The translations under genes were made by a program, and so were the position numbers. A stretch of 40,616 nt of DNA. Source: Escherichia phage EC.W1-9. Below are positions 4,905-40,044 of this stretch, piece after piece; positions within the stretch are counted from its first letter, which is position 1; every line of letters starts with the position of its first letter. Where the stretch lies: the sequence record PP445227.1, one strand, 5' to 3'. Under the pieces are notes generated by a model. The model worked only from the letters and a program-made list of their open reading frames with translations, did not search any database and was not told the DNA's origin.

Positions 4905-5830
4905 TCACTATTACCAAAGAACGCCTGCTGACAATCCAGCAGTGGCGCGAAACATACGGACCTGGTAGCAACGTTGTACTGCCAGCAGAAGAAGCGGAAG
5001 AACTGGCACGAATTGCTCTGGCATCGCTGGAGCAGAATGCACTATCTGGCAACTCTCGGCTTATTCCTGGTGAAGTGTTGTCCGCAATCCGGGAGGTTGC
5101 CAAGATTCGTGCCGATTTCGATGATTTTGACGGTGACAGGCGAGGTATCGGTGATTGTCTGGATGAGGCCGAGCAAGAGCTTATCGTTACCATTAACAAA
5201 TATGCCAGTCAGTTGGCAGCAGAACCGATAGCGACTAATGACGTTCGAGAGCAGCAGACAGCCGTTCCGCCAGTTCCGGAAATACAGGATGATGTCGCGC
5301 AAGCAATTGAAAATCTCAAGCAGAAGTTAGTGGAATGCAATCGCTATAACTACTGCGCAGATGCAGTTAAAGGCGTAGAGGATGCCTGCCACGCTGCCAT
5401 GCTTCATAGTGCCGAACCTGCAAGTAATCATGAAGAGTTGCCGCTTGATTATCTCCAAGGTCAAAAAGATGGTCTTGAATGGGCTGCGCAGCTTGCAGAA
5501 GCAAATCACCCACAAACTGGCGACTGGCTTTACGATGACCCGCTGGAGGTGGCTAAAGCTATCAGAAAAGGTCCTGACATGCCCGAATTCGATGGACCAA
5601 CTCCGGCAACTCCGGATGGTTGGATAAGCTGTAGTGAGCGAATGCCGAACGATAAACAGTATGTTTGGTGTTGGGGTAAGTCTTACGGCTGGACTGAGTG
5701 CGATACCTTCGAAGGGTATTACGATTGGTCGAGAAACAAATGGTGGGCAGTTACTGACGATGGGGAAGAACCGGCATCGAAAGTAACCCACTGGATGCCG
5801 CTACCAGAACCGCCGCAGGAGGTGAAGTGA
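4901..5830 (+). CDS. DUF551-domain phage protein
   Basis: 309 aa; C-terminal DGWISCSERMP…THWMPLPEPP resembles the DUF551 signature (recalled). Confidence 0.55.
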   Translation: MITITKERLLTIQQWRETYGPGSNVVLPAEEAEELARIALASLEQNALSGNSRLIPGEVLSAIREVAKIRADFDDFDGDRRGIGDCLDEAEQELIVTINKYASQLAAEPIATNDVREQQTAVPPVPEIQDDVAQAIENLKQKLVECNRYNYCADAVKGVEDACHAAMLHSAEPASNHEELPLDYLQGQKDGLEWAAQLAEANHPQTGDWLYDDPLEVAKAIRKGPDMPEFDGPTPATPDGWISCSERMPNDKQYVWCWGKSYGWTECDTFEGYYDWSRNKWWAVTDDGEEPASKVTHWMPLPEPPQEVK

Positions 5831-5952
5831 TGAACAAGTGCAACGCTCTGCTTTATGCCATGGTGATTGGTTTCGGCCTGGTTGCTGGTATCCGGGTTTA
5901 TATTACCTGGGAGTCATTAATCAATCTGGCGTGGAGTGCGATTCGTGGCTAA
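5830..5952 (+). CDS. Small hydrophobic protein (40 aa), not in the ORF track
   Basis: ATG overlaps upstream stop (TGATG), GGAGGTGA SD; translation MNKCNALLYAMVIGFGLVAGIRVYITWESLINLAWSAIRG has one predicted TM helix. Confidence 0.45.
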   Translation: MNKCNALLYAMVIGFGLVAGIRVYITWESLINLAWSAIRG

Positions 5953-6247
5953 ATCCCCCGCAGAACGCAAAGCCGCGCAGCGCGCTCGGCAGTCCGCCGC
6001 CGGTGAGCGCAAAATTGAACTGGTGCTGGATAAGCAGGAGCAGGAAATGCTGGCGCGGAACTGCGCCGCCCGGCGCCCTGGTCGCGATCCCTATGAAATG
6101 GCCGAGTACATCGCGCTGCTGATCCGCCAGGATGATGCACGTGTGCGCGGGCGTATAAAATCGATCAGCAGAAACTTTGCGGTAAGTGCGGCGAGAGAGT
6201 TCCCGTTAATTCATGCCCGTGTAATGGTGACTCGCAATGCTGGGTGA
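5936..6247 (+). CDS. Hypothetical basic protein in a locally GC-rich segment
   Basis: 103-aa ORF from GTG; Arg/Ala-rich; start uncertain and overlaps the small ORF. Confidence 0.35.
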   Translation: MRFVAKSPAERKAAQRARQSAAGERKIELVLDKQEQEMLARNCAARRPGRDPYEMAEYIALLIRQDDARVRGRIKSISRNFAVSAAREFPLIHARVMVTRNAG

Positions 6248-6331
6248 CTAAAGGCTGGCATGAAACGAAATTAATAGTGTGACATGTCACGAGTAGATTA
6301 TGCATGATGAATTTGATGGGTTTTGAATACT

Positions 6332-6358
6332 GCCGCCAACTATGGCGGCTTTATTTTG
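6332..6358 (+). terminator. Rho-independent terminator-like hairpin upstream of the terminase genes
   Basis: GCCGCC-aactat-GGCGGC followed by TTTATTTTG. Confidence 0.55.
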
Positions 6359-6368
6359 CATGGTACTA

Positions 6369-6383
6369 TTACCACAACGGTAA
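6369..6383. promoter_or_regulatory. Palindromic site TTACC-N5-GGTAA
   Basis: TTACCacaacGGTAA; a weaker second copy TTACCatggtGGTTA at 6387-6401. Confidence 0.45.
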
Positions 6384-6400
6384 CAATTACCATGGTGGTT

Positions 6401-6997
6401 ATGATGCCTGCTGAACCTAAAACCTATAAACGCAAATCAACGCAATTTAAGCCACTAACCGCAATGCAGGAGGCTTATTGCCAGTCATACATCAAAACGC
6501 CTGAAAACCAGACTCAGGCAGCGATTAACGCAGGATTCTCCCCAAATACAGCGGCAGTTAAAGCCAGTGTCATGATGCGCGATGAACGCATTCAAAAACG
6601 GATTGCCGAGTTGATGGAGGAGCGCAACAAACGAATGCGCGTCAGTGCCGATTACGTTCTCATGCGCCTGGTGGAGATCGACCAGATGGACGTGATTGAT
6701 ATCCTCAATGACGATGGGAGCCTTAAGCCAATCCGCGAGTGGCCGAAAATCTGGCGCACTACGCTTAGTGGCTTTGATCTGTCATCGACCATCATGAACA
6801 TGAACGAGGATTCGATAGAGACAATTCTCAAAAAAATTAAATGGCCTGACAAGGTGAAGAACCTCGAACTGATTGGTAAGCACGTCGACGTCAATGCATT
6901 CAAAGAACGCCTGGATGTTAATGTGAATGTGACAATTGCTGATCGCATAGCGGCAGCCAGGAAGCGACTCAAAGAACGTCAGGATGGTAATCAGTGA
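6401..6997 (+). CDS. Terminase small subunit
   Basis: AYCQSYIKTPENQTQAAINAGFSPNTAAVKAS region typical of phage small terminase; directly upstream of the large terminase. Start taken at the ATG at 6401 rather than the TTG at 6323. Confidence 0.7.
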   Translation: MMPAEPKTYKRKSTQFKPLTAMQEAYCQSYIKTPENQTQAAINAGFSPNTAAVKASVMMRDERIQKRIAELMEERNKRMRVSADYVLMRLVEIDQMDVIDILNDDGSLKPIREWPKIWRTTLSGFDLSSTIMNMNEDSIETILKKIKWPDKVKNLELIGKHVDVNAFKERLDVNVNVTIADRIAAARKRLKERQDGNQ

Positions 6998-8463
6998 CAG
7001 ATACAGCGTTATCTCCTGAAGAGCAGTTGATCGAGGATATTGCAGGGTTCACTCACGATCCGCTTGGCTATGCCCTCTATGCGTTCCCGTGGGGGGAAGA
7101 GGGGACTGAACTGGCACATGCTACCGGCCCACGTCAGTGGCAGGCTGATGCGTTCCGAGAGATACGTGATCACCTGCAGAATCCAGAGACGCGCTATCAG
7201 CCGCTTATGCTGGCACGCGCTTCTGGTCACGGTATTGGTAAATCCGCATTCATCTCAATGCTGATCAACTGGGGCATGTCCACTTGCGAGGATTGTAAGG
7301 TCGTGGTGACCGCCAACACCGACAACCAGCTACGAACGAAGACCTGGCCGGAAATTATCAAGTGGTCGAACCTTGCTATCACGAAAGACTGGTTTACCTG
7401 TACCGCTACTGCGATGTACAGCAATGATCCTGGGCACGACAAGCGGTGGCGAGCTGACGCAATCCCCTGGTCTGAGCACAACACTGAGGCATTCGCCGGA
7501 CTACACAACGAGCGCAAACGCATCATCGTGGTATTCGATGAAGCGTCGAACATTGCGGATCTGGTGTGGGAAGTTGCTGAGGGTGCGCTTACGGACGAAG
7601 ACACTGAGATTATCTGGGTGGCGTTCGGAAACCCTACACGTAATACCGGGCGTTTTCGCGAATGTTTCCGCAAATACAAACACCGCTGGAAAACTGCGCA
7701 GATTGACAGCCGGACGGTGGAAGGTACTAACAAACAGCAGTTGCAGAAATGGGTTGATGACTACGGGGAAGACAGCGACTTCGTTAAAATCCGTGTGCGC
7801 GGCATATTCCCTGATGCATCTGAATTGCAGTTTATCCCTACCGGTCTTACTGATGAGGCAATGAAACGGGTGGTAACCGCTGCGCAGGTTGCACATGCTC
7901 CGGTGATAATCGGCGTTGACCCGGCATACTCCGGAGTTGATGACGCTGTGATATACCTGCGGCAGGGGCTGCACAGTAAGGTGCTGTGGACTGGCAACAA
8001 GACCACTGACGATCTGATAATGGCGAAGCGTATCGCTGACTTTGAAGACCAGTACCAGGCTGACGCAGTGTTCATCGACTTCGGTTACGGAACTGGTCTG
8101 AAGTCAATCGGTGACGGCTGGGGTCGTACATGGCAACTTGTTCCGTTCGGTGGCGCGTCTACTGACCCGCAGATGCTCAACAAGCGTGGGGAGATGTTCA
8201 ACTCATGCAAGACATGGCTGAGGCTGGGCGGGATGCTGGATGACCAGGAAACAGCAGACGACCTGTCGACGGCAGAGTACAAAGTTCGCGTGGACGGTAA
8301 AATCGTTATCGAACCGAAGGAAGATATCAAAGAGCGACTTGGGCGTTCGCCGGGTAAAGGTGATGCGCTGCTGCTAACGTTCGCCTTCCCGGTAGCCAAG
8401 AAAACTAATGACCCACGGCAGCAGCAGGGGAAAGCTATTACTGAGTACGATCCGTTTTCATAA
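6994..8463 (+). CDS. Terminase large subunit
   Basis: 489 aa; Walker A-like ARASGHGIGKSAF; acidic nuclease-type C-terminal half; GTG start overlaps the small-subunit stop. Confidence 0.8.
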   Translation: MTDTALSPEEQLIEDIAGFTHDPLGYALYAFPWGEEGTELAHATGPRQWQADAFREIRDHLQNPETRYQPLMLARASGHGIGKSAFISMLINWGMSTCEDCKVVVTANTDNQLRTKTWPEIIKWSNLAITKDWFTCTATAMYSNDPGHDKRWRADAIPWSEHNTEAFAGLHNERKRIIVVFDEASNIADLVWEVAEGALTDEDTEIIWVAFGNPTRNTGRFRECFRKYKHRWKTAQIDSRTVEGTNKQQLQKWVDDYGEDSDFVKIRVRGIFPDASELQFIPTGLTDEAMKRVVTAAQVAHAPVIIGVDPAYSGVDDAVIYLRQGLHSKVLWTGNKTTDDLIMAKRIADFEDQYQADAVFIDFGYGTGLKSIGDGWGRTWQLVPFGGASTDPQMLNKRGEMFNSCKTWLRLGGMLDDQETADDLSTAEYKVRVDGKIVIEPKEDIKERLGRSPGKGDALLLTFAFPVAKKTNDPRQQQGKAITEYDPFS

Positions 8464-8467
8464 AGTT

Positions 8468-9073
8468 TTAAGCAGCATTGTCTGTGTTGCGATTGTTCCT
8501 TGAGTTAAACTTATTTGCAATTCTGGTATTGGATTTTATTTTTTCTTCTGCAAGTTCTTTTTCAAGCGCCATTATTTTTTCAATAAGGGAATCTCTTTCC
8601 TGCAAAAAAGAATTCAAAGACTCTTGGTGCTTGATTAAATCATTTTTATAGAATTGAATCTCAGACTCAAACTCAACCTTAACTCTGTCGTATGTAATGT
8701 CCCTTTGTGCCTCAAGCTTACGCAATTCTATGGCGTTTTTAACATCCCTGAGGCTTTTGTTGTGTTTGAAGTTATCGATGTTCTGTAGTGGAATTTTTTG
8801 AAACATCACCACTATATTGTTAAACCATGGAACTATTACACACAGCGCGAATGCACATAAAGCTGGATATAAGAGTGAGTGGTACGCATCACTATGGGAA
8901 GATATATAATTTATTTTTTCTTCAATTCCTGACTTACTGAAGAATAAAAATAATAGTGGATTCCAGTTAAAAGAACACCACGAAAACACAAATGCCCCAA
9001 GTGCTGGGTTGCGGACTCTCTCTGACGCTGTGCTAATAGCCGATGATGCGATCTCTTTAAATTGCTCGAACAT
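8468..9073 (-). CDS. Accessory (moron) membrane protein with C-terminal coiled coil
   Basis: 201-aa ORF on the opposite strand to the late operon, visibly AT-rich; two hydrophobic helices then a Lys/Glu-rich heptad region; palindromic site 33 bp upstream. Confidence 0.6.
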   Translation of the reverse strand: MFEQFKEIASSAISTASERVRNPALGAFVFSWCSFNWNPLLFLFFSKSGIEEKINYISSHSDAYHSLLYPALCAFALCVIVPWFNNIVVMFQKIPLQNIDNFKHNKSLRDVKNAIELRKLEAQRDITYDRVKVEFESEIQFYKNDLIKHQESLNSFLQERDSLIEKIMALEKELAEEKIKSNTRIANKFNSRNNRNTDNAA

Positions 9074-9105
9074 GTCTAAACCAGATGTTAAATGTTTTTG
9101 TTATC

Positions 9106-9120
9106 TTACCTTCAAGGTAA
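9106..9120. promoter_or_regulatory. Palindromic site TTACC-N5-GGTAA
   Basis: TTACCttcaaGGTAA upstream of the minus-strand moron gene. Confidence 0.5.
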
Positions 9121-9323
9121 CGTTCAGTCACCAGGCAAAAAAATGCCCGGCGAACCGGGCGAACTGGAAGCAATGAGTTATGCCTTCCGTGGCTGTACTG
9201 GTTTACAGCATGAAGTCATCGCAATGGCGTCCTGCTGTAAAAAGGGCGGTGATAGTCCTTCAAGGGAAACAGTCACCGCCAATCCCCTGGAACTTCTGGC
9301 ATCACGGTCCTTAGGCGTGATTC

Positions 9324-9400
9324 TGGCGTGGCATGCAGGATTCGAACCTGCGACCAACCGCTTAGAAGGCGGTTGCTCTGTCCAACTGAGCTAATGCCAC
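9324..9400 (-). tRNA. tRNA-Arg (anticodon UCU)
   Basis: Reverse complement folds as a cloverleaf: acceptor GTGGCAT/ATGCCAC, D-arm GCTC…GAGC, anticodon stem ACCGC/GCGGT with loop CTTCTAA, T-arm GCAGG-TTCGAAT-CCTGC, discriminator G, encoded CCA; 77 nt. Confidence 0.85.
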
Positions 9401-9729
9401 AACGCTGAGAGCACTGGTTTGGCTCGATATCAGGTAGGGTGGAACAGCCCGCTAATATCCAATGCTCTCATCGTTGTACCCTCGTCTCTTCCGAGGCGTC
9501 ACACCGAATCGCCGGGATGGTGAATCCCCGTGCGCGGAATAAAACCGCTCGACTTGCACATTCCGGCTACCTGGTTCGTTTGCCCGAGCAAGGGAGGGTG
9601 CCCCTTAAACGTATCCAGACCGCTATCGTCGCATGTGCCATACGCCGTACTGCTCAAAATAAAAGCTCACTCCACCTGTTCAATTTAACGACAAGCCAGT
9701 CAGGTTAGTAACCGGAATGAACTCTTTGG

Positions 9730-9744
9730 TTACCTTAAAGGTAA
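9730..9744. promoter_or_regulatory. Palindromic site TTACC-N5-GGTAA
   Basis: TTACCttaaaGGTAAT upstream of the head-gene cluster. Confidence 0.5.
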
Positions 9745-9834
9745 TAATTCGTGCATTAAATGTCAACTGTCTACGATAAATAAATCATATGTGGTTAAAT
9801 TGGTAATAATTTAATTGCGTACGGAGTCATTGAT

Positions 9835-10041
9835 ATGTGCATGGGTAGCTCACCATCAGTGCCTGCAACACCAGAAGTTCAGGCAGCACCACAGGAGCAG
9901 GATGCCGCCGTTGTTGATGCCCGCGACGAAGAAACTCGTCGCCGTCGCGCTGCTGCTGGTCGTAGTTCTACGCTGCTTACCGGTTCTCAGGGCGACACAT
10001 CAACCGCTAATACCAGCGGTAAAACGCTGCTTGGTCAGTAA
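9835..10041 (+). CDS. Small hydrophilic protein
   Basis: 68-aa ORF, GGAG 7 nt upstream of the ATG; low-complexity, Arg/Ala-rich. Confidence 0.45.
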   Translation: MCMGSSPSVPATPEVQAAPQEQDAAVVDARDEETRRRRAAAGRSSTLLTGSQGDTSTANTSGKTLLGQ

Positions 10042-10055
10042 CCGGAGTCATTGAA

Positions 10056-11735
10056 ATGGCGGAAACAACTAAAGAGCGATTGAACAAACAGTTCGCACAA
10101 CTTGAAAGCGAGCGTCAATCGTTCGAGCCGCACTGGCGCGAGTTGAGTGATTACATCAACCCGCGTGGTTCCCGCTTTCTGACTTCTGAGGTCAACCGTA
10201 ACGATCGACGCAATACACGTATTATTGATTCGACCGGGACTATGGCGGCGCGCACTCTCGCCAGCGGCATGATGTCAGGCATCACAAGCCCCGCGCGTCC
10301 GTGGTTTCGCCTGGCTACGCCAGATCCTGAAATGATGGATTATGGCCCTGTTAAGTTGTGGCTTGAGGCGGTGCAGAACCGCATGAACGATATGTTCAAT
10401 AAGTCGAATCTCTATCAGTCTCTGCCGCAGTTATACGGAAGCCTCGGCACATACAGCACTGGTGCAATGGCAGTGCTGGAGGATGACGAGGACATCATTC
10501 GCACAATGCCATTCCCGATAGGCAGTTACTACCTGGCTAACTCACCTCGTGGCAGTGTGGACACCTGTTTTCGCAAGTTCTCTATGACTGTTCGTCAGCT
10601 TGTTCAGGAGTTCGGGCTAAATAACGTCAGCGAATCCGTAAAAAGCATGTGGGAAAGCGGCACCTACGAGAAGTGGATTGAAGTGATGCATTCGGTTTAC
10701 CCGAACATTGACCGCGATGCATCGAAGCTGGATAGCAAGAACAAGCCATTCAAATCGGTTTATTACGAGGTTGGTGGCGATAACGACAAGTTGTTGCGCG
10801 AGTCCGGATTCGATGAGTTTCCAATTATGGCTCCGCGCTGGGAAGTTAACGGCGAAGATGTTTATGGATCATCATGCCCGGGTATGCTGGCGCTTGGACC
10901 TGTTAAGGCATTGCAGCTTCTCCAGAAGCGCAAGTCGCAGTTGATTGATAAAGCCACCAATCCGCCGATGGTTGCTCCGACTTCCCTCAAGAATCAGCGC
11001 GCCTCCCTTCTTCCTGGCGACATCACGTATATCGATCAGATTACTGGTCAGGATGGCTTCAGGCCTGCTTATCTGGTTAACCCCAGTACAGCAGATTTGG
11101 TGGCAGACATTCAGGACACTCGTCAAATCATTAACAGCGCCTACTTCGTCGATCTGTTCATGATGTTGCAGAACATCAATACCCGCTCAATGCCTGTTGA
11201 AGCGGTGATCGAAATGAAAGAAGAAAAGCTTCTGATGTTGGGGCCGGTTCTGGAGCGTCTGAACGACGAATGTCTTAATCCTCTCATTGACCGCGCTTTC
11301 TCGATGATGGTGCGTAAAAACATGCTGCCGCCACCGCCTGACGCGATGGAAGGTATGCCCCTGAAGGTCGAATACATTTCTGTCATGGCTCAGGCGCAGA
11401 AGTCTATCGGCCTGTCCAGTCTGGCGTCCACGGTTAACTTCATTGGTCAACTTGCGCAAGCGAAACCAGAAGCTTTCGACAAACTCAACGTTGATCAGGC
11501 GATCGATGCATTCGCTGATATGTCCGGAGTGTCTCCAACCGTCATTGTTCCGCAGGAACAGGTTGAGCAGGCTCGCCAGCAACGGGCACAGCAACAACAG
11601 CAGCAACAAATGATGGCGATGGGGATGGCGGCGGCACAGGGTGCCAAGACGCTAAGCGAAGCTAAAACTTCGGATCCGAGTGTTTTGTCAGCTATGGCGA
11701 ATGCAGTTAGTGGTCAGGGTGGGCAATCACAATGA
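10056..11735 (+). CDS. Portal (head-to-tail connector), T7 gp8-like
   Basis: 559 aa, follows the terminase; Gln/Met/Ala-rich C-terminal tail (QQQQQQQMMAMGMAAAQGA) parallels the T7 gp8 C-terminus. Confidence 0.75.
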   Translation: MAETTKERLNKQFAQLESERQSFEPHWRELSDYINPRGSRFLTSEVNRNDRRNTRIIDSTGTMAARTLASGMMSGITSPARPWFRLATPDPEMMDYGPVKLWLEAVQNRMNDMFNKSNLYQSLPQLYGSLGTYSTGAMAVLEDDEDIIRTMPFPIGSYYLANSPRGSVDTCFRKFSMTVRQLVQEFGLNNVSESVKSMWESGTYEKWIEVMHSVYPNIDRDASKLDSKNKPFKSVYYEVGGDNDKLLRESGFDEFPIMAPRWEVNGEDVYGSSCPGMLALGPVKALQLLQKRKSQLIDKATNPPMVAPTSLKNQRASLLPGDITYIDQITGQDGFRPAYLVNPSTADLVADIQDTRQIINSAYFVDLFMMLQNINTRSMPVEAVIEMKEEKLLMLGPVLERLNDECLNPLIDRAFSMMVRKNMLPPPPDAMEGMPLKVEYISVMAQAQKSIGLSSLASTVNFIGQLAQAKPEAFDKLNVDQAIDAFADMSGVSPTVIVPQEQVEQARQQRAQQQQQQQMMAMGMAAAQGAKTLSEAKTSDPSVLSAMANAVSGQGGQSQ

Positions 11736-12028
11736 CAGATTACGAAGACGATCAACTGAAAGAAGAAAACGCCCGTAAGCAACGTGACATGGCACAGCGT
11801 GAAATTGATGACATTCGCTTTGTCATGAGCAGTGAACAGGGGCGTCGCGTTGTCTGGTCTGTGCTGGAGAAAGGCCGGGTGTTTTCCGCTATCTCACCGA
11901 TGGACGCTATGGCAATGGCATTTAATGAGGGGCAACGCAATCTGGCGCTGGAACTGTTTCAGCGCGTTATGGCGCATTGCCCTGAACAGTATTTGAAGAT
12001 GGCCAAAGAGGCCAGTGAACAGGAGTGA
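11732..12028 (+). CDS. Hypothetical head-module protein
   Basis: 98 aa; ATGA overlap with the portal stop. Confidence 0.55.
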   Translation: MTDYEDDQLKEENARKQRDMAQREIDDIRFVMSSEQGRRVVWSVLEKGRVFSAISPMDAMAMAFNEGQRNLALELFQRVMAHCPEQYLKMAKEASEQE

Positions 12029-12030
12029 TC

Positions 12031-12726
12031 ATGAATTTATTTGAGCGTTTGCTGTATCGCCGTCTTTGCAATGAGCAACCAGTCGATGGTGGAGCAGCTC
12101 CGGCTGCGTCAGAACCGTCAGCGCCTGCAGGTGATAACCCTGCTCCAGTTGGTGATCCATCACAACAGGAAGGTGATAAGCCACAACCTGTTGCTGATGG
12201 CGATAAACCTGCTGATGACAAAAAGCCTGAAAACGATAAGCAGGATGAAAAAAAGGACGGCGATAAACCAGAGGGTGCGCCTGAGAAGTACGAGTTTCAG
12301 GCTGCCGAAGGCGTAGAGCTGGATACAGAAGCGTTGAAGGAGTTCGAGCCGGTGGCGCGAGAACTTAACCTGACCAACGAGCAAGCGCAAAAGCTGGTTG
12401 ATGCTTATCCGAAAATTCTGGCAGGTGTTCAGCAGCGCCAGGCAGAAGCCTGGCAGAAAACAACCGAGCAGTGGGCTGCGGATGTAAAAGCTGACAAAGA
12501 AATCGGTGGCGACAAGTTGATTTCTAACCTTAGCGCCGCACAGCGTGCGCTTGACCAGTTCGGGACACCTGAACTCAAAGAATATCTGAACACCACCGGG
12601 CTGGGTAATCACCCTGATCTGGTCAAAACGTTCGTGAAAATCGGAAAGGCTATGTCTGAAGATGGCATGGTCACCGGTGGTAATGAAGGCCAGCGTAGTG
12701 CGGCCGAAGTGCTCTATGGCAAATAA
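12031..12726 (+). CDS. Scaffolding protein
   Basis: Highly acidic Pro/Asp/Glu/Lys-rich N-terminus and helical C-terminus, between portal and capsid; ATG at 12031 after AGGAG. Confidence 0.65.
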   Translation: MNLFERLLYRRLCNEQPVDGGAAPAASEPSAPAGDNPAPVGDPSQQEGDKPQPVADGDKPADDKKPENDKQDEKKDGDKPEGAPEKYEFQAAEGVELDTEALKEFEPVARELNLTNEQAQKLVDAYPKILAGVQQRQAEAWQKTTEQWAADVKADKEIGGDKLISNLSAAQRALDQFGTPELKEYLNTTGLGNHPDLVKTFVKIGKAMSEDGMVTGGNEGQRSAAEVLYGK

Positions 12727-13778: not shown

Positions 13779-14216
13779 ATGATCACCGACAAACTGTTGA
13801 TGTTCTCCGAAGCACAGGCGGTAACTGATACCGCGGCTTCTACTGACGTAATCGATCTCGGTCCAATTGACGGAAACCGTCGCGATATCGGTGTGGGTTA
13901 CCCGCTTGAGTTTTGGGTGCTGGTTAACGAAGCCGCCACGGCAAGTGGTGAGGCAACTGTAAACATCCAGTTGCAGACGAGTGAGAATAACAGCTCATGG
14001 TCCACTATTTATGATAGTGGCGCACTGGCAAAGGCCACCCTGACAGCAGGTAAGCGAGTTGTTTCTGCAAAGGTGCCTGCCGGTGTTCAGCGATATCTGC
14101 GTGTTAACTACTCCGTCGCAACTGGCCCACTAACGGCTGGCAAATTCACTGCGGGTATCAATCTTGATGTTGATGCCAATACGCCGTATCCGATCCGCTC
14201 AAAAGTAACTGGTTAA
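13779..14216 (+). CDS. Hypothetical virion-associated protein (possible decoration protein)
   Basis: 145 aa, Thr/Ala/Gly-rich beta-type composition, immediately after the capsid gene. Confidence 0.45.
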   Translation: MITDKLLMFSEAQAVTDTAASTDVIDLGPIDGNRRDIGVGYPLEFWVLVNEAATASGEATVNIQLQTSENNSSWSTIYDSGALAKATLTAGKRVVSAKVPAGVQRYLRVNYSVATGPLTAGKFTAGINLDVDANTPYPIRSKVTG

Positions 14217-14226
14217 GGTGATATTG

Positions 14227-14562
14227 ATGTCAGGTGAGAAACCAAGATACCGCGTTCTGCGCCTCTCTCATATCCATAACACTCTGTGGCCGGAGGGGGC
14301 AGAAATCGAATACGAAGGTGAGCCTGGTAGCGCACTGGAACCTGTTAACGATGCAGCCAGACAGGCAAAAGCAAAAGTTGCAGGAAAGGTGTCAATGGCA
14401 GCAACCAGCACCAAAATCATCAACGATGTGTCAGATGATGGTGAACTGGATAAGCTCCGTGAAGAGTACGAATTGCTCTTTAACGAGAAGCCACACCATA
14501 ACGCCAAAGCCGAAACGCTCCGCGAGAAGATCGCAGATAAGCGTAAAGAACTGGGCGTGTAA
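14227..14562 (+). CDS. Hypothetical protein
   Basis: ATG at 14227 after AAGGTGA; acidic/basic helical C-terminus. Confidence 0.45.
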   Translation: MSGEKPRYRVLRLSHIHNTLWPEGAEIEYEGEPGSALEPVNDAARQAKAKVAGKVSMAATSTKIINDVSDDGELDKLREEYELLFNEKPHHNAKAETLREKIADKRKELGV

Positions 14563-29458: not shown

Positions 29459-31333
29459 ATGACGGTCTCAACCGAAGTTGACCACAACGAATACACCGGT
29501 AACGGCGTTACGACATCGTTTCCGTATACTTTTCGAATTTTCAGAAAATCAGACCTGGTTGTTCAGGTGTCTGATCTGAACGGAAACGTAACAGAATTGG
29601 TCCTGGATACCGGTTATACGGTAACTGGGGCGGGCACTTATAGTGGCGGTTCTGTGGTTCTTCCGTCTCCGCTTGCTACTGGATGGCGAATTACGATAGA
29701 TCGTGTGCTTGATGTAGTGCAGGAGACAGACCTTCGCAATCAGGGAAAATTTTTCCCCGAAGTGCATGAAGATGCCTTTGACTACCTGACGATGCTGATC
29801 CAGCAATGTTTTGGGTGGTTCAGACGTGCATTGATGAAGCCCTCTCTGCTTGCAAAATATTACGATGCAAAGCAAAACAGAATTTCTAACCTTGCAGATC
29901 CATCACTTGAGCAGGATGCTGTAAATAATCGCTCAATGCGTAATTATGTCGATGCTGCAATCGCCGGGGTTGTTGGTGGTTTTGGTTGGTTTATTCAGTA
30001 TGGTTCTGGGGCTGTGTACCGAACGTTCCAGGATAAGATGAGAGACACCATTAGTGTTCGTGATTTTGGTGCAAAAGGAGACGGCATAACAGATGATACT
30101 GTAGCAATTCAAAATGCTATTAATGCAGTACCAGAAGGGGCTATACTTGGATTTTATGGTGGTGAATTTGTTTTTGATAAGGTTGAATTGTTTAAGCCAA
30201 TAACATTAGTTGGTGATGCAACGTTAATTCACAACGGATTTAGAATAAAATCTAGCAGAATCCGATCACTTTTATCTGGCGTTCAGAAATGCAAGGATTA
30301 CTCCGAGTCTTCAAGAGCATTTTATTGCTATGCAAATGAAGACCAAAGAGATTATGACGATATTCAGATTTTATTTAATAGATTTGAAGGTTTCTTTTAC
30401 TCTACGGCATTTGTTGCAAAAAACTATTATTTGGAGAATGACCCTAATTCAAGAATTGTCAAAAACACAAAAGTAATAGGGTGTACATCAGTTGCTCCTG
30501 ATTCTGTAAATGCCGGTCATTTTCAACATATAGGCGTTACAAATGCTGAAACATCACATAACTCAACTTATGGCGGACAAAATGCAACATCATACAACTT
30601 CATTAACCAGAATGGATTTGTAAGGATTATAGGAAATTATGACCATAACAATAGCTATGGTTCATGTGAGCTTGAGAACTCAATGGTGAGTAACTCAGTC
30701 ATATCAGGTAATACGTTTTCGTCATATTTATGGGTGGATGATACAAGTAATGTTACTATTTCTGGAAATACAGTTTCATCAAGGATCAAAGTAACATCGC
30801 AAACTGACGATGTTCATAATATAACCATATCAGCAAATACCACAAAACGGATTACTATAGAGCAATTTGGAGAATCTCCAACAGGTCTGGTATATGGTGC
30901 ATTAATTTCCTGCAACACTATTACTGGCGACAGTGATGGAAGTTCAGACATTTTATGTACGTCACTTGTTACAGGTGAAATTTCATCAAATTATTGTCAT
31001 GGATCAGAAAAAAATATATCAATTGTCCGCCTGGATTCTTCTGATATAACTGTTAGAAATAATAAAGGAAACAAAGGATTACTTACAATAAGTAACGATG
31101 GTGGAAGGATAATTGAATATGGCAATGATTCTATGGTTCTGTCTGGAAGCATAGATAGCAGACATATACATAATTTATTACATCCAGACACATCGTATTT
31201 AGACCTACCGGGGAAATATCTGCACGGAACTAAATATACTGGCAGTATCCCCCCGGTTCCACAGGAATTGTATCACTTCAAATACCATCAGGGGCAAGCC
31301 TTGTTTTCAGGGGTGTTTCTATATGGGTTCTAA
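29459..31333 (+). CDS. Tailspike: T7 gp17-like N-terminal adaptor domain plus right-handed beta-helix (pectate-lyase-like) domain; frame broken near the 3' end
   Basis: N-terminus EYTGNGVTTSFPYTFRIFRKSDLVV resembles the gp17 N-terminal domain; RDFGAKGDGITDDTVAIQNAI is a beta-helix hallmark; the frame ends 26 codons after a C6 run while a second frame continues. Confidence 0.7.
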   Translation: MTVSTEVDHNEYTGNGVTTSFPYTFRIFRKSDLVVQVSDLNGNVTELVLDTGYTVTGAGTYSGGSVVLPSPLATGWRITIDRVLDVVQETDLRNQGKFFPEVHEDAFDYLTMLIQQCFGWFRRALMKPSLLAKYYDAKQNRISNLADPSLEQDAVNNRSMRNYVDAAIAGVVGGFGWFIQYGSGAVYRTFQDKMRDTISVRDFGAKGDGITDDTVAIQNAINAVPEGAILGFYGGEFVFDKVELFKPITLVGDATLIHNGFRIKSSRIRSLLSGVQKCKDYSESSRAFYCYANEDQRDYDDIQILFNRFEGFFYSTAFVAKNYYLENDPNSRIVKNTKVIGCTSVAPDSVNAGHFQHIGVTNAETSHNSTYGGQNATSYNFINQNGFVRIIGNYDHNNSYGSCELENSMVSNSVISGNTFSSYLWVDDTSNVTISGNTVSSRIKVTSQTDDVHNITISANTTKRITIEQFGESPTGLVYGALISCNTITGDSDGSSDILCTSLVTGEISSNYCHGSEKNISIVRLDSSDITVRNNKGNKGLLTISNDGGRIIEYGNDSMVLSGSIDSRHIHNLLHPDTSYLDLPGKYLHGTKYTGSIPPVPQELYHFKYHQGQALFSGVFLYGF

Positions 31334-31587
31334 TTAGAGATGTTAGCAATAACAATATATCGTCATTCAGAATTGATGGTTCATATAGAGTTGTTGGTGG
31401 AAGTGTTGGTCTTAGTTTTGCTGATGCTTATTCGAAACTCGGGGTGGATGCAAACTCTATAACAGTGTCAAACAATAACAGCACTTCTGACAATATCAGC
31501 ATAGCAATTAAAAACACAGATTCATCAAAAACCCTTCAGGTTACTGTTATGCCTGAGGTTTCAAGCAGGTTAGGTATTGAGGAATAG
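31234..31587 (+). pseudogene. Alternative-frame continuation of the tailspike C-terminus
   Basis: Frame with codons at 31234… is open to TAG 31585-31587 and encodes beta-rich …GSTGIVSLQIPSGASLVFRGVSIWV…ISSFRIDGSYRVVGGSVGLSFADAYSKLGVDANSITVSNNNSTSDNISIAIKNTDSSKTLQVTVMPEVSSRLGIEE; the two frames meet at CCCCCC 31249-31254. Confidence 0.5.
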
Positions 31588-39459: not shown

Positions 39460-40044
39460 TTATTGTTTGTTTTTTTCGTTCTGGTTGATGACAAATTCAA
39501 TGTAACTTTCGATCTTTGCTTTCTCGGTTTCGGGTAACAATGCGTAGCGCGAGCGATCATAGTTGATGGTCGCAGGGTCGTGCGGGTGAATCAGTAATTC
39601 ATAGCCGTGACGCCCGAATGCGGATGCAACATTCTCCAGGGTGGAAATGGAAACGCTGACCTCATTGTTTAACAGGCGGCTGATTGTCACCTGGGCTACG
39701 CCGGATGCGCGGTGAAGTTTTCCCTGTGTTGAAAGGTCGCGGCTTTCGCTCATCCAGCGTTCCAGGTTGTGAGCCGCCAGCTGGCCAATGTCGCTTGGGC
39801 CGACAGGCTGAAAACCTTCCTGAGAAAGCGAGCGATCGATATCAAGCCAGTTACGGGGTTTATTGGCGGCAGCTTCAATTTTTCGCGCAACCTGATCGCC
39901 GATAACCTTCTTACCAAGAGCCCAGCGGTTTACCAGATTTGCCTGAGTTCCAAGTTTTTCAGCCATCCGCGTCTGAACACCATTGAATTCACGGTCGATC
40001 AAGTCGTTGAGATTTTGCCTGCGGACGTCCTGGATACTTTTCAT
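39460..40044 (-). CDS. Repressor-like DNA-binding protein with two HTH-like segments
   Basis: 194 aa; segments LGTQANLVNRWALGKKVIGDQVARKIE and SGVAQVTISRLLNNEVSVSISTLENVASAFG look like XRE-type HTH units; divergent from a Cro-like gene across a triple-site region; no S24 peptidase motif noticed. Confidence 0.5.
   Translation of the reverse strand: MKSIQDVRRQNLNDLIDREFNGVQTRMAEKLGTQANLVNRWALGKKVIGDQVARKIEAAANKPRNWLDIDRSLSQEGFQPVGPSDIGQLAAHNLERWMSESRDLSTQGKLHRASGVAQVTISRLLNNEVSVSISTLENVASAFGRHGYELLIHPHDPATINYDRSRYALLPETEKAKIESYIEFVINQNEKNKQ

What the first reader, a model, noticed from the sequence alone, without database searches (positions are those of the whole stretch)
8468..9120. Opposite-strand AT-rich moron between terminase and portal encoding a membrane plus coiled-coil protein
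A single gene of deviating composition and orientation is inserted at a classic moron position, carries its own upstream ATTACC-type site and sits next to a phage-borne tRNA. The architecture (two TM helices, long charged coiled coil) fits superinfection-exclusion or abortive-infection effectors, but I recognise no family, so it may be an undescribed single-gene defence or lysogenic-conversion function.
Basis: partly seen in the sequence, partly recalled or inferred. Interest (0 to 1): 0.6.

Follow-up and report, generated by a model that had tools for sequence, protein, structure and literature searches.

The report
Phage accessory membrane protein, candidate exclusion gene
A real, foreign-looking gene sits backwards between the DNA-packaging and portal genes of an E. 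coli prophage; it encodes a small inner-membrane protein with a long helical stalk from a large, unstudied family that many phages carry as swappable cargo, and it is a plausible but untested phage-exclusion factor.

Summary
ORF 8468-9073 (minus strand, 201 aa) has 36% GC against 52-54% in its flanks. It lies between terL and a tRNA-Arg/portal unit of a phiV10/epsilon15-like (Uetakevirus) prophage. It encodes two transmembrane helices followed by a roughly 110-residue helix.

It is not an orphan. It belongs to a large uncharacterised family (PHROG 4780 and relatives; 235 clusters at E<=1e-10) with no Pfam, NCBIfam, PADLOC or PDB relative. Family members occupy this same slot in most related phages sampled. 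They also occur in a lambdoid phage, in Vibrio filamentous phages, in decayed prophage remnants, and alone in Bacteroidota chromosomes.

The N-terminal membrane module is conserved and the C-terminal end is hypervariable and recombines. Each slot allele has its own sigma-70-type promoter overlapped by the phage-wide palindrome TTACC-N5-GGTAA. That palindrome is probably the immunity operator, so the gene may be silent in the lysogen.

The best reading is a membrane-level phage-exclusion or abortive-infection protein (about 0.4). Function is unproven. This exact protein is already listed, untested, as a "predicted novel defense gene" by DefensePredictor (log-odds 4.36).

The parts
8468..9073 (-). 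CDS, 201 aa, membrane protein of the PHROG 4780-type family (identical to WP_024946521.1)
   Evidence: ORF listing; PGAP annotates the same CDS in E. coli IMT16316; PHROG 4780 E=6.5e-52; dN/dS 0.36 against the Klebsiella copy, and dS saturated with dN 0.23 against the Kluyvera copy.
9014..9070 (-). Codons 2-20: N-terminal amphipathic helix, carrying the start of the family motif (ER-x-[KR]-NP)
   Evidence: AF2 helix 2-20; R19 98% and P23 94% conserved in 100 members.
8936..9007 (-). Codons 23-46: transmembrane segment 1, kinked at N36-W37 (motif G-A-F-x-F-S-W-x-x-F-N-W)
   Evidence: Hydropathy; AF2 helices 23-35 and 37-45; G26, F28, W32, N36 and W37 are at least 90% conserved.
8801..8878 (-). 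Codons 66-91: transmembrane segment 2, continuous with the stalk helix
   Evidence: Hydropathy up to 2.1; AF2 helix 63-200; P70 99% and P82 95% conserved.
8471..8800 (-). Codons 92-201: charged alpha-helical stalk (heptad pattern at about aa 127-175) and a short basic, Asn-rich tail; predicted to be cytoplasmic
   Evidence: AF2 pLDDT at least 90 over most of it; heptad scan; positive-inside counts over 100 members: N-terminus +1.1, loop -0.7, after TM2 +1.9. It is the variable part of the family.
9103..9131 (-). Predicted sigma-70-type promoter: -35 GTGACT (9126-9131), 17-nt spacer, -10 TAAGAT (9103-9108)
   Evidence: Read from the sequence. The same layout, (G/A)TGAC(T/C) - 17 nt - TAnnnT, is conserved upstream of about 35 slot alleles with different -10 hexamers (TATACT, TAGAAT, TACAAT, TATAAT). 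It matches 8 of 12 consensus positions, which is below the threshold of the scan.
9106..9120 (.). Palindrome TTACC-TTCAA-GGTAA, a copy of the phage-wide operator-like site, lying in the promoter spacer and overlapping the -10
   Evidence: 17 copies in the window against 0.61 expected. Pairs of copies flank the HTH_3 repressor-like ORF 39460..40044. The same arrangement is present in Klebsiella phage BUCT711.
9137..9160 (-). Intrinsic terminator of the upstream tRNA-Arg unit (GCCCGGTTCGCCGGGC plus T-run). It marks the right-hand boundary of the variable cassette and insulates the gene from tRNA transcription
   Evidence: Terminator scan; alignment with phiV10 and phiv142-3, where homology resumes at the A/T run.

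Best explanation
Shown or well supported: the gene is intact and under purifying selection. It encodes a small protein with an N-terminal amphipathic helix, a two-helix membrane hairpin and a roughly 110-residue helical stalk. Charge distribution predicts that both termini are cytoplasmic. It belongs to a large uncharacterised family with no enzymatic domain and no conserved partner gene. In Uetakevirus-like phages the family is the usual cargo of the slot between terL and the tRNA-Arg/portal unit. There it is read against the late genes from its own sigma-70-type promoter. The N-terminal membrane module is conserved. The C-terminal end is hypervariable and is exchanged by recombination.

Inferred, and the mechanism I commit to: it is a single-protein, membrane-level phage-exclusion factor, acting either as a superinfection-exclusion block at the inner membrane or as an abortive-infection membrane effector. 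The conserved hairpin is the anchor or effector. The variable cytoplasmic tip is the specificity determinant that meets components of an incoming phage.

The promoter is overlapped by the probable immunity operator. I therefore expect the gene to be off in a stable lysogen. It should be switched on after infection or induction, and be constitutive in repressor-less prophage remnants. That would make it a lytic-phase exclusion function like T4 Imm rather than a classical lysogenic-conversion gene.
For: - Accessory status: the slot is empty in phiv142-3 and holds an unrelated Gp49-family gene in phiV10. The 201-aa allele is in only 25 of 5426 complete E. coli genomes, while 504 carry the flanking tRNA region.
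- Foreign composition.
- Same slot, opposite strand, in 31 of 37 IMG/VR contigs that carry a relative, and in Rahnella and Advenella prophages.
- Cargo of unrelated elements: a lambdoid Klebsiella phage, between the replication and nin genes; Vibrio inoviruses, with hmmsearch E=2e-30 and 1e-24; a Chryseobacterium prophage.
- Kept intact next to a truncated terL in Klebsiella michiganensis and Kluyvera remnants, with dN/dS 0.36 overall and 0.16 in the membrane half.
- Arms-race-like modularity: 34 unique alleles among 43. Mean pairwise identity is 57% (aa 1-95), 47% (aa 96-175) and 18% (aa 176-end). There is an intragenic recombination breakpoint between the 282-aa and 272-aa alleles: dS is 0.07 for codons 1-100 and saturated beyond.
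- No partner gene and no fused domain in 100 members.
- Independent prediction: this exact protein, WP_024946521.1, is listed as 'Predicted novel defense gene' with mean log-odds 4.36 (strict cutoff 4) in Table S5 of DefensePredictor (PMC13092281). In that study 45% of cloned predicted units validated overall.
- Architectural analogy: P22 sieA is also an opposite-strand, own-promoter, inner-membrane-protein gene placed against the late operon.
Against: - There is no experimental datum for any family member.
- There is no detectable homology to any validated defence or exclusion protein. PADLOC gives only coiled-coil noise. hhalign against P22 SieA and SieB gives probability below 1%. Fold searches return only long-helix matches.
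- Many Bacteroidota homologues are single genes among housekeeping genes, not in defence islands or prophages.
- The operator predicts repression in the lysogen, which removes the usual rationale for a prophage defence moron.
- The machine-learning score is only just above the strict cutoff (sd 2.05, minimum 0.83), and the gene was not among the units tested (it does not occur in Tables S6 or S7).
- The Shine-Dalgarno sequence is weak.
- Long-standing residence in a single slot of one phage lineage could equally mean that it serves the phage's own cycle.
Confidence: 0.4

Rival explanations
1. It is an early, phage-serving factor: counter-defence, host take-over, or membrane organisation of the carrier phage's own infection. 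It would be expressed when repressor is absent. The variable tip would bind host membrane-associated targets, such as host defence proteins, rather than rival phages.
For: The promoter is overlapped by the probable immunity operator, so expression is predicted in the lytic or derepressed state. The family has kept the same slot across Uetakevirus-like phages of E. coli, Klebsiella, Rahnella and Advenella. A hypervariable end in a fixed accessory slot is also typical of counter-defence genes (general knowledge of phage accessory regions; the gene was not found in the accessory-gene screen checked).
Against: It is dispensable: phiV10 and phiv142-3 lack it. It is retained intact in decayed, non-functional prophage remnants. 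It is present as stand-alone chromosomal genes in Bacteroidota. It is also present in non-lytic filamentous phages. A context-aware model scores it as defence-like.
Confidence: 0.25
2. It is a host-physiology or envelope factor unrelated to phage conflict, for example a membrane scaffold, a stress function or a division-related function. Phages would simply carry it as a fitness cargo gene.
For: Most family members retrieved with the broad profile are Bacteroidota chromosomal proteins of about 277 aa. They lie next to housekeeping genes such as TGT, ACCase, RNR, PFK, LptF/G, der and thi. There is no enzymatic domain. The architecture (membrane hairpin plus cytoplasmic coil) is common among scaffolds.
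Against: No neighbourhood or partner is conserved, which would be expected for a housekeeping complex. C-terminal variability and recombination are extreme within a single phage lineage. It recurs in accessory regions of four unrelated phage types.
Confidence: 0.15
3. It is a lysis-timing protein (a holin, antiholin or pinholin-like protein): two TM helices with N-in/C-in topology and a charged cytoplasmic C-terminus.
For: The predicted topology and the charged C-terminal domain resemble class II holins (holin topology from established knowledge).
Against: It is two to four times longer than class II holins. It is not in the lysis cassette; in the related phage BUCT711 the annotated holins lie at 13835-14525, next to the lysis genes and far from this slot. 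It gives no hit to any holin PHROG or Pfam family. It is present in filamentous phages, which do not lyse their hosts, and in chromosomes.
Confidence: 0.07
4. It is a non-functional or decaying ORF. Under this reading the 201-aa form is a truncated remnant of the usual 250-280-aa protein.
For: It is the shortest allele type. It lacks the roughly 55-80-residue variable tail of the other slot alleles. One other 201-aa allele (L052) is clearly a truncation of a 246-aa type.
Against: The short form, with the same C-terminal end, is conserved in E. coli, Klebsiella michiganensis (203 aa, 89% identity) and Kluyvera (73% identity). Against Kluyvera, synonymous sites are saturated while dN is only 0.23. 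It is 100% identical in 25 E. coli genomes from unrelated sources. The promoter is intact.
Confidence: 0.03

Closest known systems
P22 SieA (superinfection exclusion, Lederbergvirus)
   Same: Both are single genes on the strand opposite to the late structural operon, with their own promoter. Both encode a small inner-membrane protein and exist as several highly divergent sequence types. SieA blocks DNA delivery at the inner membrane (PMC10883804; P22 annotation).
   Different: There is no sequence relationship (hhalign probability 0.7%). SieA is 162-164 aa with three predicted TM segments and no long stalk. SieA is expressed from the prophage, whereas the gene here carries an operator-like site over its promoter.
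T4 Imm (and other lytic-phase exclusion proteins)
   Same: Imm is a small membrane protein made by the infecting phage early in infection that excludes later-arriving phages at the DNA-entry step (established knowledge). This matches the expression timing predicted here from the operator.
   Different: T4 is a virulent phage. Imm is about 80 aa and has no stalk. No PHROG or Pfam match links the two proteins. The comparison is an analogy from memory, not a test.
Two-TM membrane effectors of abortive-infection systems (SLATT-type or 2TM effectors of CBASS, retrons and Pycsar; RexB-like proteins)
   Same: They share a short membrane hairpin with cytoplasmic termini and conserved polar residues in the membrane (here N36, N85). 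Such a hairpin could depolarise the membrane when triggered.
   Different: Those effectors work with a sensor or signal-generating partner encoded next to them. Here there is no conserved partner. There is no Pfam SLATT or PADLOC match in 100 members.
PHROG 4780 / 13369 / 35327 / 22645 (function unknown)
   Same: This is true family membership: E=6.5e-52, 2e-20, 2.6e-17 and 5e-06 over the N-terminal 100-200 residues.
   Different: Those profiles are 275-348 positions long. The window protein stops at about position 199 of 275 and so lacks the usual C-terminal tail.
DefensePredictor 'predicted novel defense genes' (PMC13092281)
   Same: This exact protein, WP_024946521.1, is in their Table S5 with mean log-odds 4.36.
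   Different: It is a prediction only. The protein is not in their lists of cloned or validated systems. Its only 'homologue' there is a coiled-coil match to LmuB (q_cov 0.12, probability 57).

Membership tests
Unnamed 2TM-plus-stalk family (PHROG 4780 and relatives) | N-terminal motif ER-x-[KR]-NP-x-x-G-[AST]-F-x-x-S-W-x-x-F-N-W and conserved prolines in TM2 | tested here: met
   R19, P23, G26, F28, W32, N36, W37, P70 and P82 are each at least 90% conserved in 100 members, and all are present in the window protein.
Unnamed 2TM-plus-stalk family (PHROG 4780 and relatives) | Significant profile match over the membrane module and the proximal stalk | tested here: met
   PHROG 4780 E=6.5e-52. In the exhaustive hmmsearch, 235 clusters score E<=1e-10, and the top hits align from residue about 1 to about 180.
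Unnamed 2TM-plus-stalk family (PHROG 4780 and relatives) | Variable C-terminal tail after the stalk (typical total length 250-330 aa) | tested here: not met
   The window protein is 201 aa and the median of 100 members is 287 aa. The tail is absent. This is a short subtype, not a reason for exclusion from the family.
Moron (Hendrix-type accessory transcription unit) | Lies between genes that are adjacent in a related phage | tested here: met
   In phiv142-3, terL is followed directly by the terminator and tRNA region.
Moron (Hendrix-type accessory transcription unit) | Deviating base composition | tested here: met
   GC 0.36 against 0.52-0.54; GC3 0.38 against 0.58-0.59.
Moron (Hendrix-type accessory transcription unit) | Own promoter and own terminator; expressed from the repressed prophage | tested here: inconclusive
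   A promoter is predicted and is conserved across alleles. Downstream there is only a weak hairpin (8472-8490). The operator-like palindrome over the -10 argues against expression in the lysogen. Expression itself cannot be tested with these tools.
P22 SieA family | Sequence or profile homology to SieA | tested here: not met
   hhalign of the 100-member profile against P22 SieA: probability 0.7%. No PHROG annotated as superinfection exclusion was matched.
P22 SieA family | Inner-membrane location and a block of DNA injection | not testable with these tools
   This needs cell fractionation and injection assays, as done in PMC10883804.
P22/lambda SieB family | Sequence or profile homology | tested here: not met
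   hhalign probability 0.4%.
Known anti-phage systems (PADLOC-DB v2.0.0) | Match to any system protein model outside coiled-coil regions | tested here: not met
   The window protein gives only CARF_HEPN at E=0.0014, over the stalk. In 100 members the only matches are to SMC-like coils such as LmuB and JetC.
SLATT / 2TM effector modules | Pfam SLATT domain and an adjacent sensor or signalling gene | tested here: not met
   No SLATT hit in 100 members. No conserved neighbour in about 20 contexts.
Class II holins | Small size (about 65-95 aa) and location in the lysis cassette | tested here: not met
   The protein is 201 aa and lies between terL and the portal gene. The holins of the related phage BUCT711 are annotated elsewhere. 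There are no holin family hits.

The most novel reading that the evidence does not exclude
The family is a widespread polymorphic single-protein phage-exclusion system. It would have a conserved two-helix membrane module and a recombining, hypervariable cytoplasmic tip that sets target specificity. It would be shared by tailed temperate phages, filamentous phages and bacterial chromosomes. In Uetakeviruses it would be wired directly to the immunity repressor through one of about 17 genome-wide operators. Exclusion would then be switched on only during lytic growth, or in repressor-less remnants.
Probability: 0.25. Interest if true: 0.65.

Novelty: new variant of a known kind. Interest (0 to 1): 0.45.

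Why it matters
If the exclusion reading is right, this adds a new, very widespread single-gene family to the membrane-level anti-phage repertoire (235 clusters at 50% identity score E<=1e-10). The family has a natural set of swappable specificity modules that could be used to map what it recognises. It would also be a case where a temperate phage places an exclusion gene under direct repressor control, so that protection is a lytic-phase trait. Practically, the gene is short, has no partner and is already flagged by an independent predictor, so the test is cheap. If the reading is wrong, the family is still one of the larger unannotated membrane-protein families shared by phages and Bacteroidota.

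Tried and rejected
- Pfam, NCBIfam and PADLOC scans of the protein and of 100 relatives returned only sub-threshold coiled-coil matches such as SMC, Rad50, myosin, LmuB and JetC. I rejected these as compositional.
- The PDB sequence-profile search gave coiled-coil noise only.
- A first AF2 run with 5 close sequences was poor (pLDDT 61.6) and was discarded in favour of the 100-sequence run.
- Homology to P22 SieA and SieB was rejected.
- Rfam found only the tRNA in 8300-10200.
- The word-indexed homologue search with the single protein found only 6 hits. The exhaustive search was needed to see the family.
- The search for related loci with the 100-member alignment failed because no stretch was conserved enough. 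A 16-member subset gave only 10 genome loci, so the chromosomal context sample is small.
- I looked for a conserved partner gene and found none.
- Literature: there were no papers for the accessions or the motif strings. The gene was not in the accessory-gene screen supplements. The epsilon15 genome paper and Brenes & Laub 2025 are not held. My recollection that epsilon15 has an ATTACC...GGTAAT operator consensus is therefore unverified.
- The plus-strand ORFs inside the gene (8478..8651, 8654..8788) and the ORF across the tRNA (9092..9394) were dismissed as antisense artefacts.

Full report
**1. What is there**

The window is a phiV10/epsilon15-like (genus Uetakevirus) prophage of E. coli. 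Its terS-terL-portal region matches phiV10, phiv142-3, ZX5 and others at 96-98% identity. The match is interrupted exactly at the finding.

The ORF is 8468..9073 on the minus strand, with an ATG start and 201 aa. NCBI's pipeline annotates the same CDS as a hypothetical protein, WP_024946521.1. GC falls to 0.34 in 8501-9000 against about 0.52 on both sides. The CDS has GC3 of 0.38 against 0.59 in terL and 0.58 in the portal gene.

The neighbours are as follows.
- terL (6994..8463, +) ends 4 nt from the stop codon of the gene.
- Upstream of the gene on its own strand lie a strong intrinsic terminator (9160..9145 plus a T-run) and tRNA-Arg(UCU) (9324..9400).
- A 68-aa ORF and the portal gene (10056..11735) follow.

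**2. The protein**

Hydropathy gives two membrane-length segments, aa 23-46 and 66-91. With a 100-sequence alignment AlphaFold2 gives a confident model (mean pLDDT 93.3). It has an amphipathic helix at 2-20, a kinked helix at 23-35/37-45, a short loop helix at 50-60, and one uninterrupted helix from 63 to 200. TM2 thus runs straight into a stalk of about 110 residues.

Over 100 family members the net charge is +1.1 before TM1, -0.7 in the loop and +1.9 after TM2. By the positive-inside rule both ends, and so the stalk, are cytoplasmic. This is an inference and has not been shown.

A regular heptad pattern is convincing only for about aa 127-175. I therefore describe the C-terminal part as a long charged helix with a coiled-coil-like core.

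**3. It has a family, but the family has no name**

Pfam, NCBIfam and PADLOC give nothing except sub-threshold coiled-coil matches. PHROGs gives strong matches to four families of unknown function, the best being phrog_4780 at E=6.5e-52.

An exhaustive profile search of 1.84 billion representatives found 1694 clusters at E<=1e-3, 235 at E<=1e-10 and 9 at E<=1e-30. The best hits align from residue about 1 to about 180 and are mostly 250-330 aa long.

The nearly invariant positions are all in the membrane module: R19, P23, G26, F28, W32, N36, W37, P70 and P82. No member of 100 carries an additional recognisable domain.

Structure and sequence comparison with solved or predicted structures returns only generic long helices. 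Profile comparison with P22 SieA and SieB is negative.

**4. Where the family lives**

*(a) The same slot.* Other E. coli Uetakevirus prophages carry a 282-aa paralogue (40% identity) or a 272-aa paralogue between terL and the tRNA, on the opposite strand. Klebsiella phage BUCT711 carries a 263-aa one. Of 37 IMG/VR contigs with a relative, 31 have it in this slot, and so do prophages of Rahnella and Advenella.

In E. coli complete genomes the counts are as follows.

| Slot content | Genomes |
|---|---|
| 201-aa allele | 25 |
| 282/272-aa types | 56 (18 full length) |
| Gp49 family (as in phiV10); this family also occurs in other phages | 243-445 |
| Flanking tRNA region | 504 |

*(b) Other phages.* A lambdoid Klebsiella phage has a copy on the opposite strand between its replication and nin genes. 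A Chryseobacterium prophage has one after its portal gene. Vibrio filamentous phages carry members in their accessory regions, confirmed by hmmsearch at E=2e-30 and 1e-24.

*(c) Remnants.* The closest relatives of the window protein are in Klebsiella michiganensis (89% identity) and Kluyvera (73%). They sit beside a terL stump that keeps only the last 172 codons. They still carry the upstream terminator, promoter and palindrome.

*(d) Chromosomes.* In Bacteroidota and Wielerella the gene stands alone among housekeeping genes, with no conserved neighbour.

**5. Selection and modularity**

Against the Klebsiella copy dN/dS is 0.36, with 0.16 in the membrane half and 0.65 in the stalk. Against the Kluyvera copy synonymous sites are saturated while dN is 0.23. 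The gene is therefore real and constrained.

Among 43 slot or near-slot copies there are 34 distinct alleles. Mean pairwise identity falls from 57% (aa 1-95) to 47% (aa 96-175) and to 18% (aa 176-end), with about ten unrelated tail types.

The 282-aa and 272-aa E. coli alleles are nearly identical for codons 1-100 (dS 0.07) and saturated beyond. The tail of the 272-aa allele matches that of the lambdoid phage copy. This indicates recombination inside the gene.

The window allele is the shortest type and lacks the tail. The same short form is conserved in three genera.

**6. Regulation**

Read on the minus strand, the terminator T-run is followed by GTGACT (9131-9126), 17 nt, and TAAGAT (9108-9103). 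The ATG follows 29 nt after the -10.

The same layout recurs upstream of essentially all slot alleles: (G/A)TGAC(T/C), 17 nt, then a TAnnnT hexamer that differs between alleles (TATACT, TAGAAT, TACAAT, TATAAT). This argues for a genuine promoter.

Inside the spacer and overlapping the -10 lies TTACC-N5-GGTAA (9106-9120). The palindrome occurs 17 times in the window against 0.61 expected, mostly in intergenic regions. Pairs of copies flank the HTH_3 repressor-like ORF 39460..40044 on both sides. The same sites, in the same places, exist in Klebsiella phage BUCT711.

The most economical reading is that this is the immunity operator and that it controls many promoters in the genome, including this one. 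That is an inference. It predicts that the gene is silent in a stable lysogen and is expressed on infection or induction. It also predicts constitutive expression in remnants that have lost the repressor.

In several other alleles the site is degenerate (CTACC...GGTAT), so control may differ between alleles.

**7. What it most likely does**

The protein has no catalytic domain and no partner, so it must act by binding or by perturbing the membrane. Several features fit a conflict gene acting at the inner membrane:
- dispensability;
- foreign composition;
- carriage by four unrelated kinds of phage, including non-lytic ones;
- retention in dead prophages;
- a conserved membrane module joined to a recombining, hypervariable tip.

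An independent, context-aware predictor lists this exact protein as a 'predicted novel defense gene' (mean log-odds 4.36, strict cutoff 4). It was not among the units they cloned, and their overall validation rate was 45%.

I therefore put a membrane-level exclusion or abortive-infection role first, at about 0.4. The expression timing would resemble T4 Imm and the genetic placement would resemble P22 sieA.

The rivals are listed here.

| Rival | Probability | Basis |
|---|---|---|
| Phage-serving early function, such as counter-defence | 0.25 | Favoured by the operator and by the long residence in one slot |
| Host-physiology function | 0.15 | Favoured by the Bacteroidota chromosomal copies |
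| Lysis timing | 0.07 | Topology resembles class II holins |
| Decay | 0.03 | Shortest allele type, lacks the tail |

**8. Novelty and verdict**

The 'no family' statement is not accurate, and the 'lysogenic conversion' idea is weakened by the operator.

The family is catalogued but uncharacterised, and this protein has already been flagged computationally as a defence candidate. Nothing found here is categorically new.

If it is a defence protein it is a new family within a known kind, namely single-gene membrane exclusion proteins of phages. It would be unusual for its polymorphic C-terminus and for direct repressor control. Interest is moderate at 0.45. It is a good, cheap experimental candidate rather than a surprise.

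Noticed in passing
window 1815, 1877, 6369, 6387, 9106, 9730, 26831, 27891, 28016, 29340, 32310, 34244, 39326, 39388, 40100, 40148, 40485: There are 17 copies of the palindrome TTACC-N5-GGTAA (11 exact; 0.61 expected), mostly intergenic and often merging into a -10-like TAATAA/TAATAT. Pairs flank the repressor-like gene 39460..40044. Single copies sit before terS, the portal unit, the tRNA unit, the DUF1064 gene and others. This looks like a genome-wide operator network, as with P1 C1 or mycobacteriophage stoperators, rather than a lambda-like immunity region. The same sites occur in Klebsiella phage BUCT711.
   Followed up: partly
window 9137-9773, minus strand: The tRNA-Arg(UCU) appears to be its own transcription unit. 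A promoter-like site lies at 9773..9744 (TAGACA-18-AATTAT, with a perfect TTGACA nearby) and abuts palindrome 9730-9744. It is followed by a leader of about 340 nt, the tRNA, and a conserved trailer of about 160 nt with two terminator-like hairpins (about 9275-9235 and 9160-9145). The trailer is 97-98% conserved in E. coli relatives and 75-80% in Salmonella and Klebsiella phages. Part of it even precedes the paralogue in the lambdoid phage KO-TP1. There is no Rfam match, and the folding z-score is only -1.7.
   Followed up: partly
window 9092-9394 (+); phiV10 gp04 (L001 2555-2806): A 100-aa plus-strand ORF runs antisense across the tRNA-Arg gene. The equivalent is annotated as a hypothetical protein in phiV10 and TL-2011b. 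It is probably a spurious annotation over the tRNA and its trailer.
   Followed up: no
L001 2161-2532 (phiV10 gp03) and 243-445 E. coli genomes: The commonest alternative occupant of the same slot is an unrelated 123-aa protein of the Gp49/Sf6 gp66 family (PF13876, E=6e-35). It is also on the minus strand, but it starts right after the tRNA terminator and has no palindrome. The slot therefore alternates between two accessory families of unknown function.
   Followed up: partly
window about 8400-8463 (3' end of terL): The last roughly 20 codons of terL diverge between the window and phiV10/phiv142-3, while the rest is about 97% identical. The left recombination boundary of the cassette therefore lies inside terL. 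The Klebsiella and Kluyvera remnants keep this same terL end attached to the gene.
   Followed up: partly
window 27939, 29387, 30823(-), 39352, 39452, 40511: The octamer ATATGGTT occurs 6 times (1.46 expected; no shuffle reached 6). Five copies are on the plus strand, a short and variable distance downstream of a palindrome copy. Its meaning is unknown.
   Followed up: no
window 30001-31500: The second-lowest GC in the window (0.35-0.37) lies inside the 624-aa pectate-lyase-like ORF 29459..31333, the probable tailspike. This suggests a horizontally exchanged receptor-binding part.
   Followed up: no
L016/L017 (Klebsiella michiganensis) 5000-12600: The prophage remnant that retains the gene lies next to a KilA-N/ANT protein, an AlpA-like regulator, and a Rap1a (T6SS immunity-like) gene followed by an 848-aa protein. 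The gene thus persists in a mixed conflict or mobile island.
   Followed up: no
L020 6075-7603 (Vibrio inovirus 10N.261.55.E6_PE001); L019 6001-6771 (vB_VipaK): Filamentous Vibrio phages carry family members in their accessory regions. In PE001 the neighbour is a DUF2726 protein. In the f237-like vB_VipaK the gene lies beside the ORF9 homologue, where f237-type phages vary.
   Followed up: partly
L052 5001-5603 (IMG/VR contig 2636416133_000008): A second, independent 201-aa allele is a premature-stop version of the 246-aa type found in L050 and L060. Tail-less forms therefore arise repeatedly.
   Followed up: no
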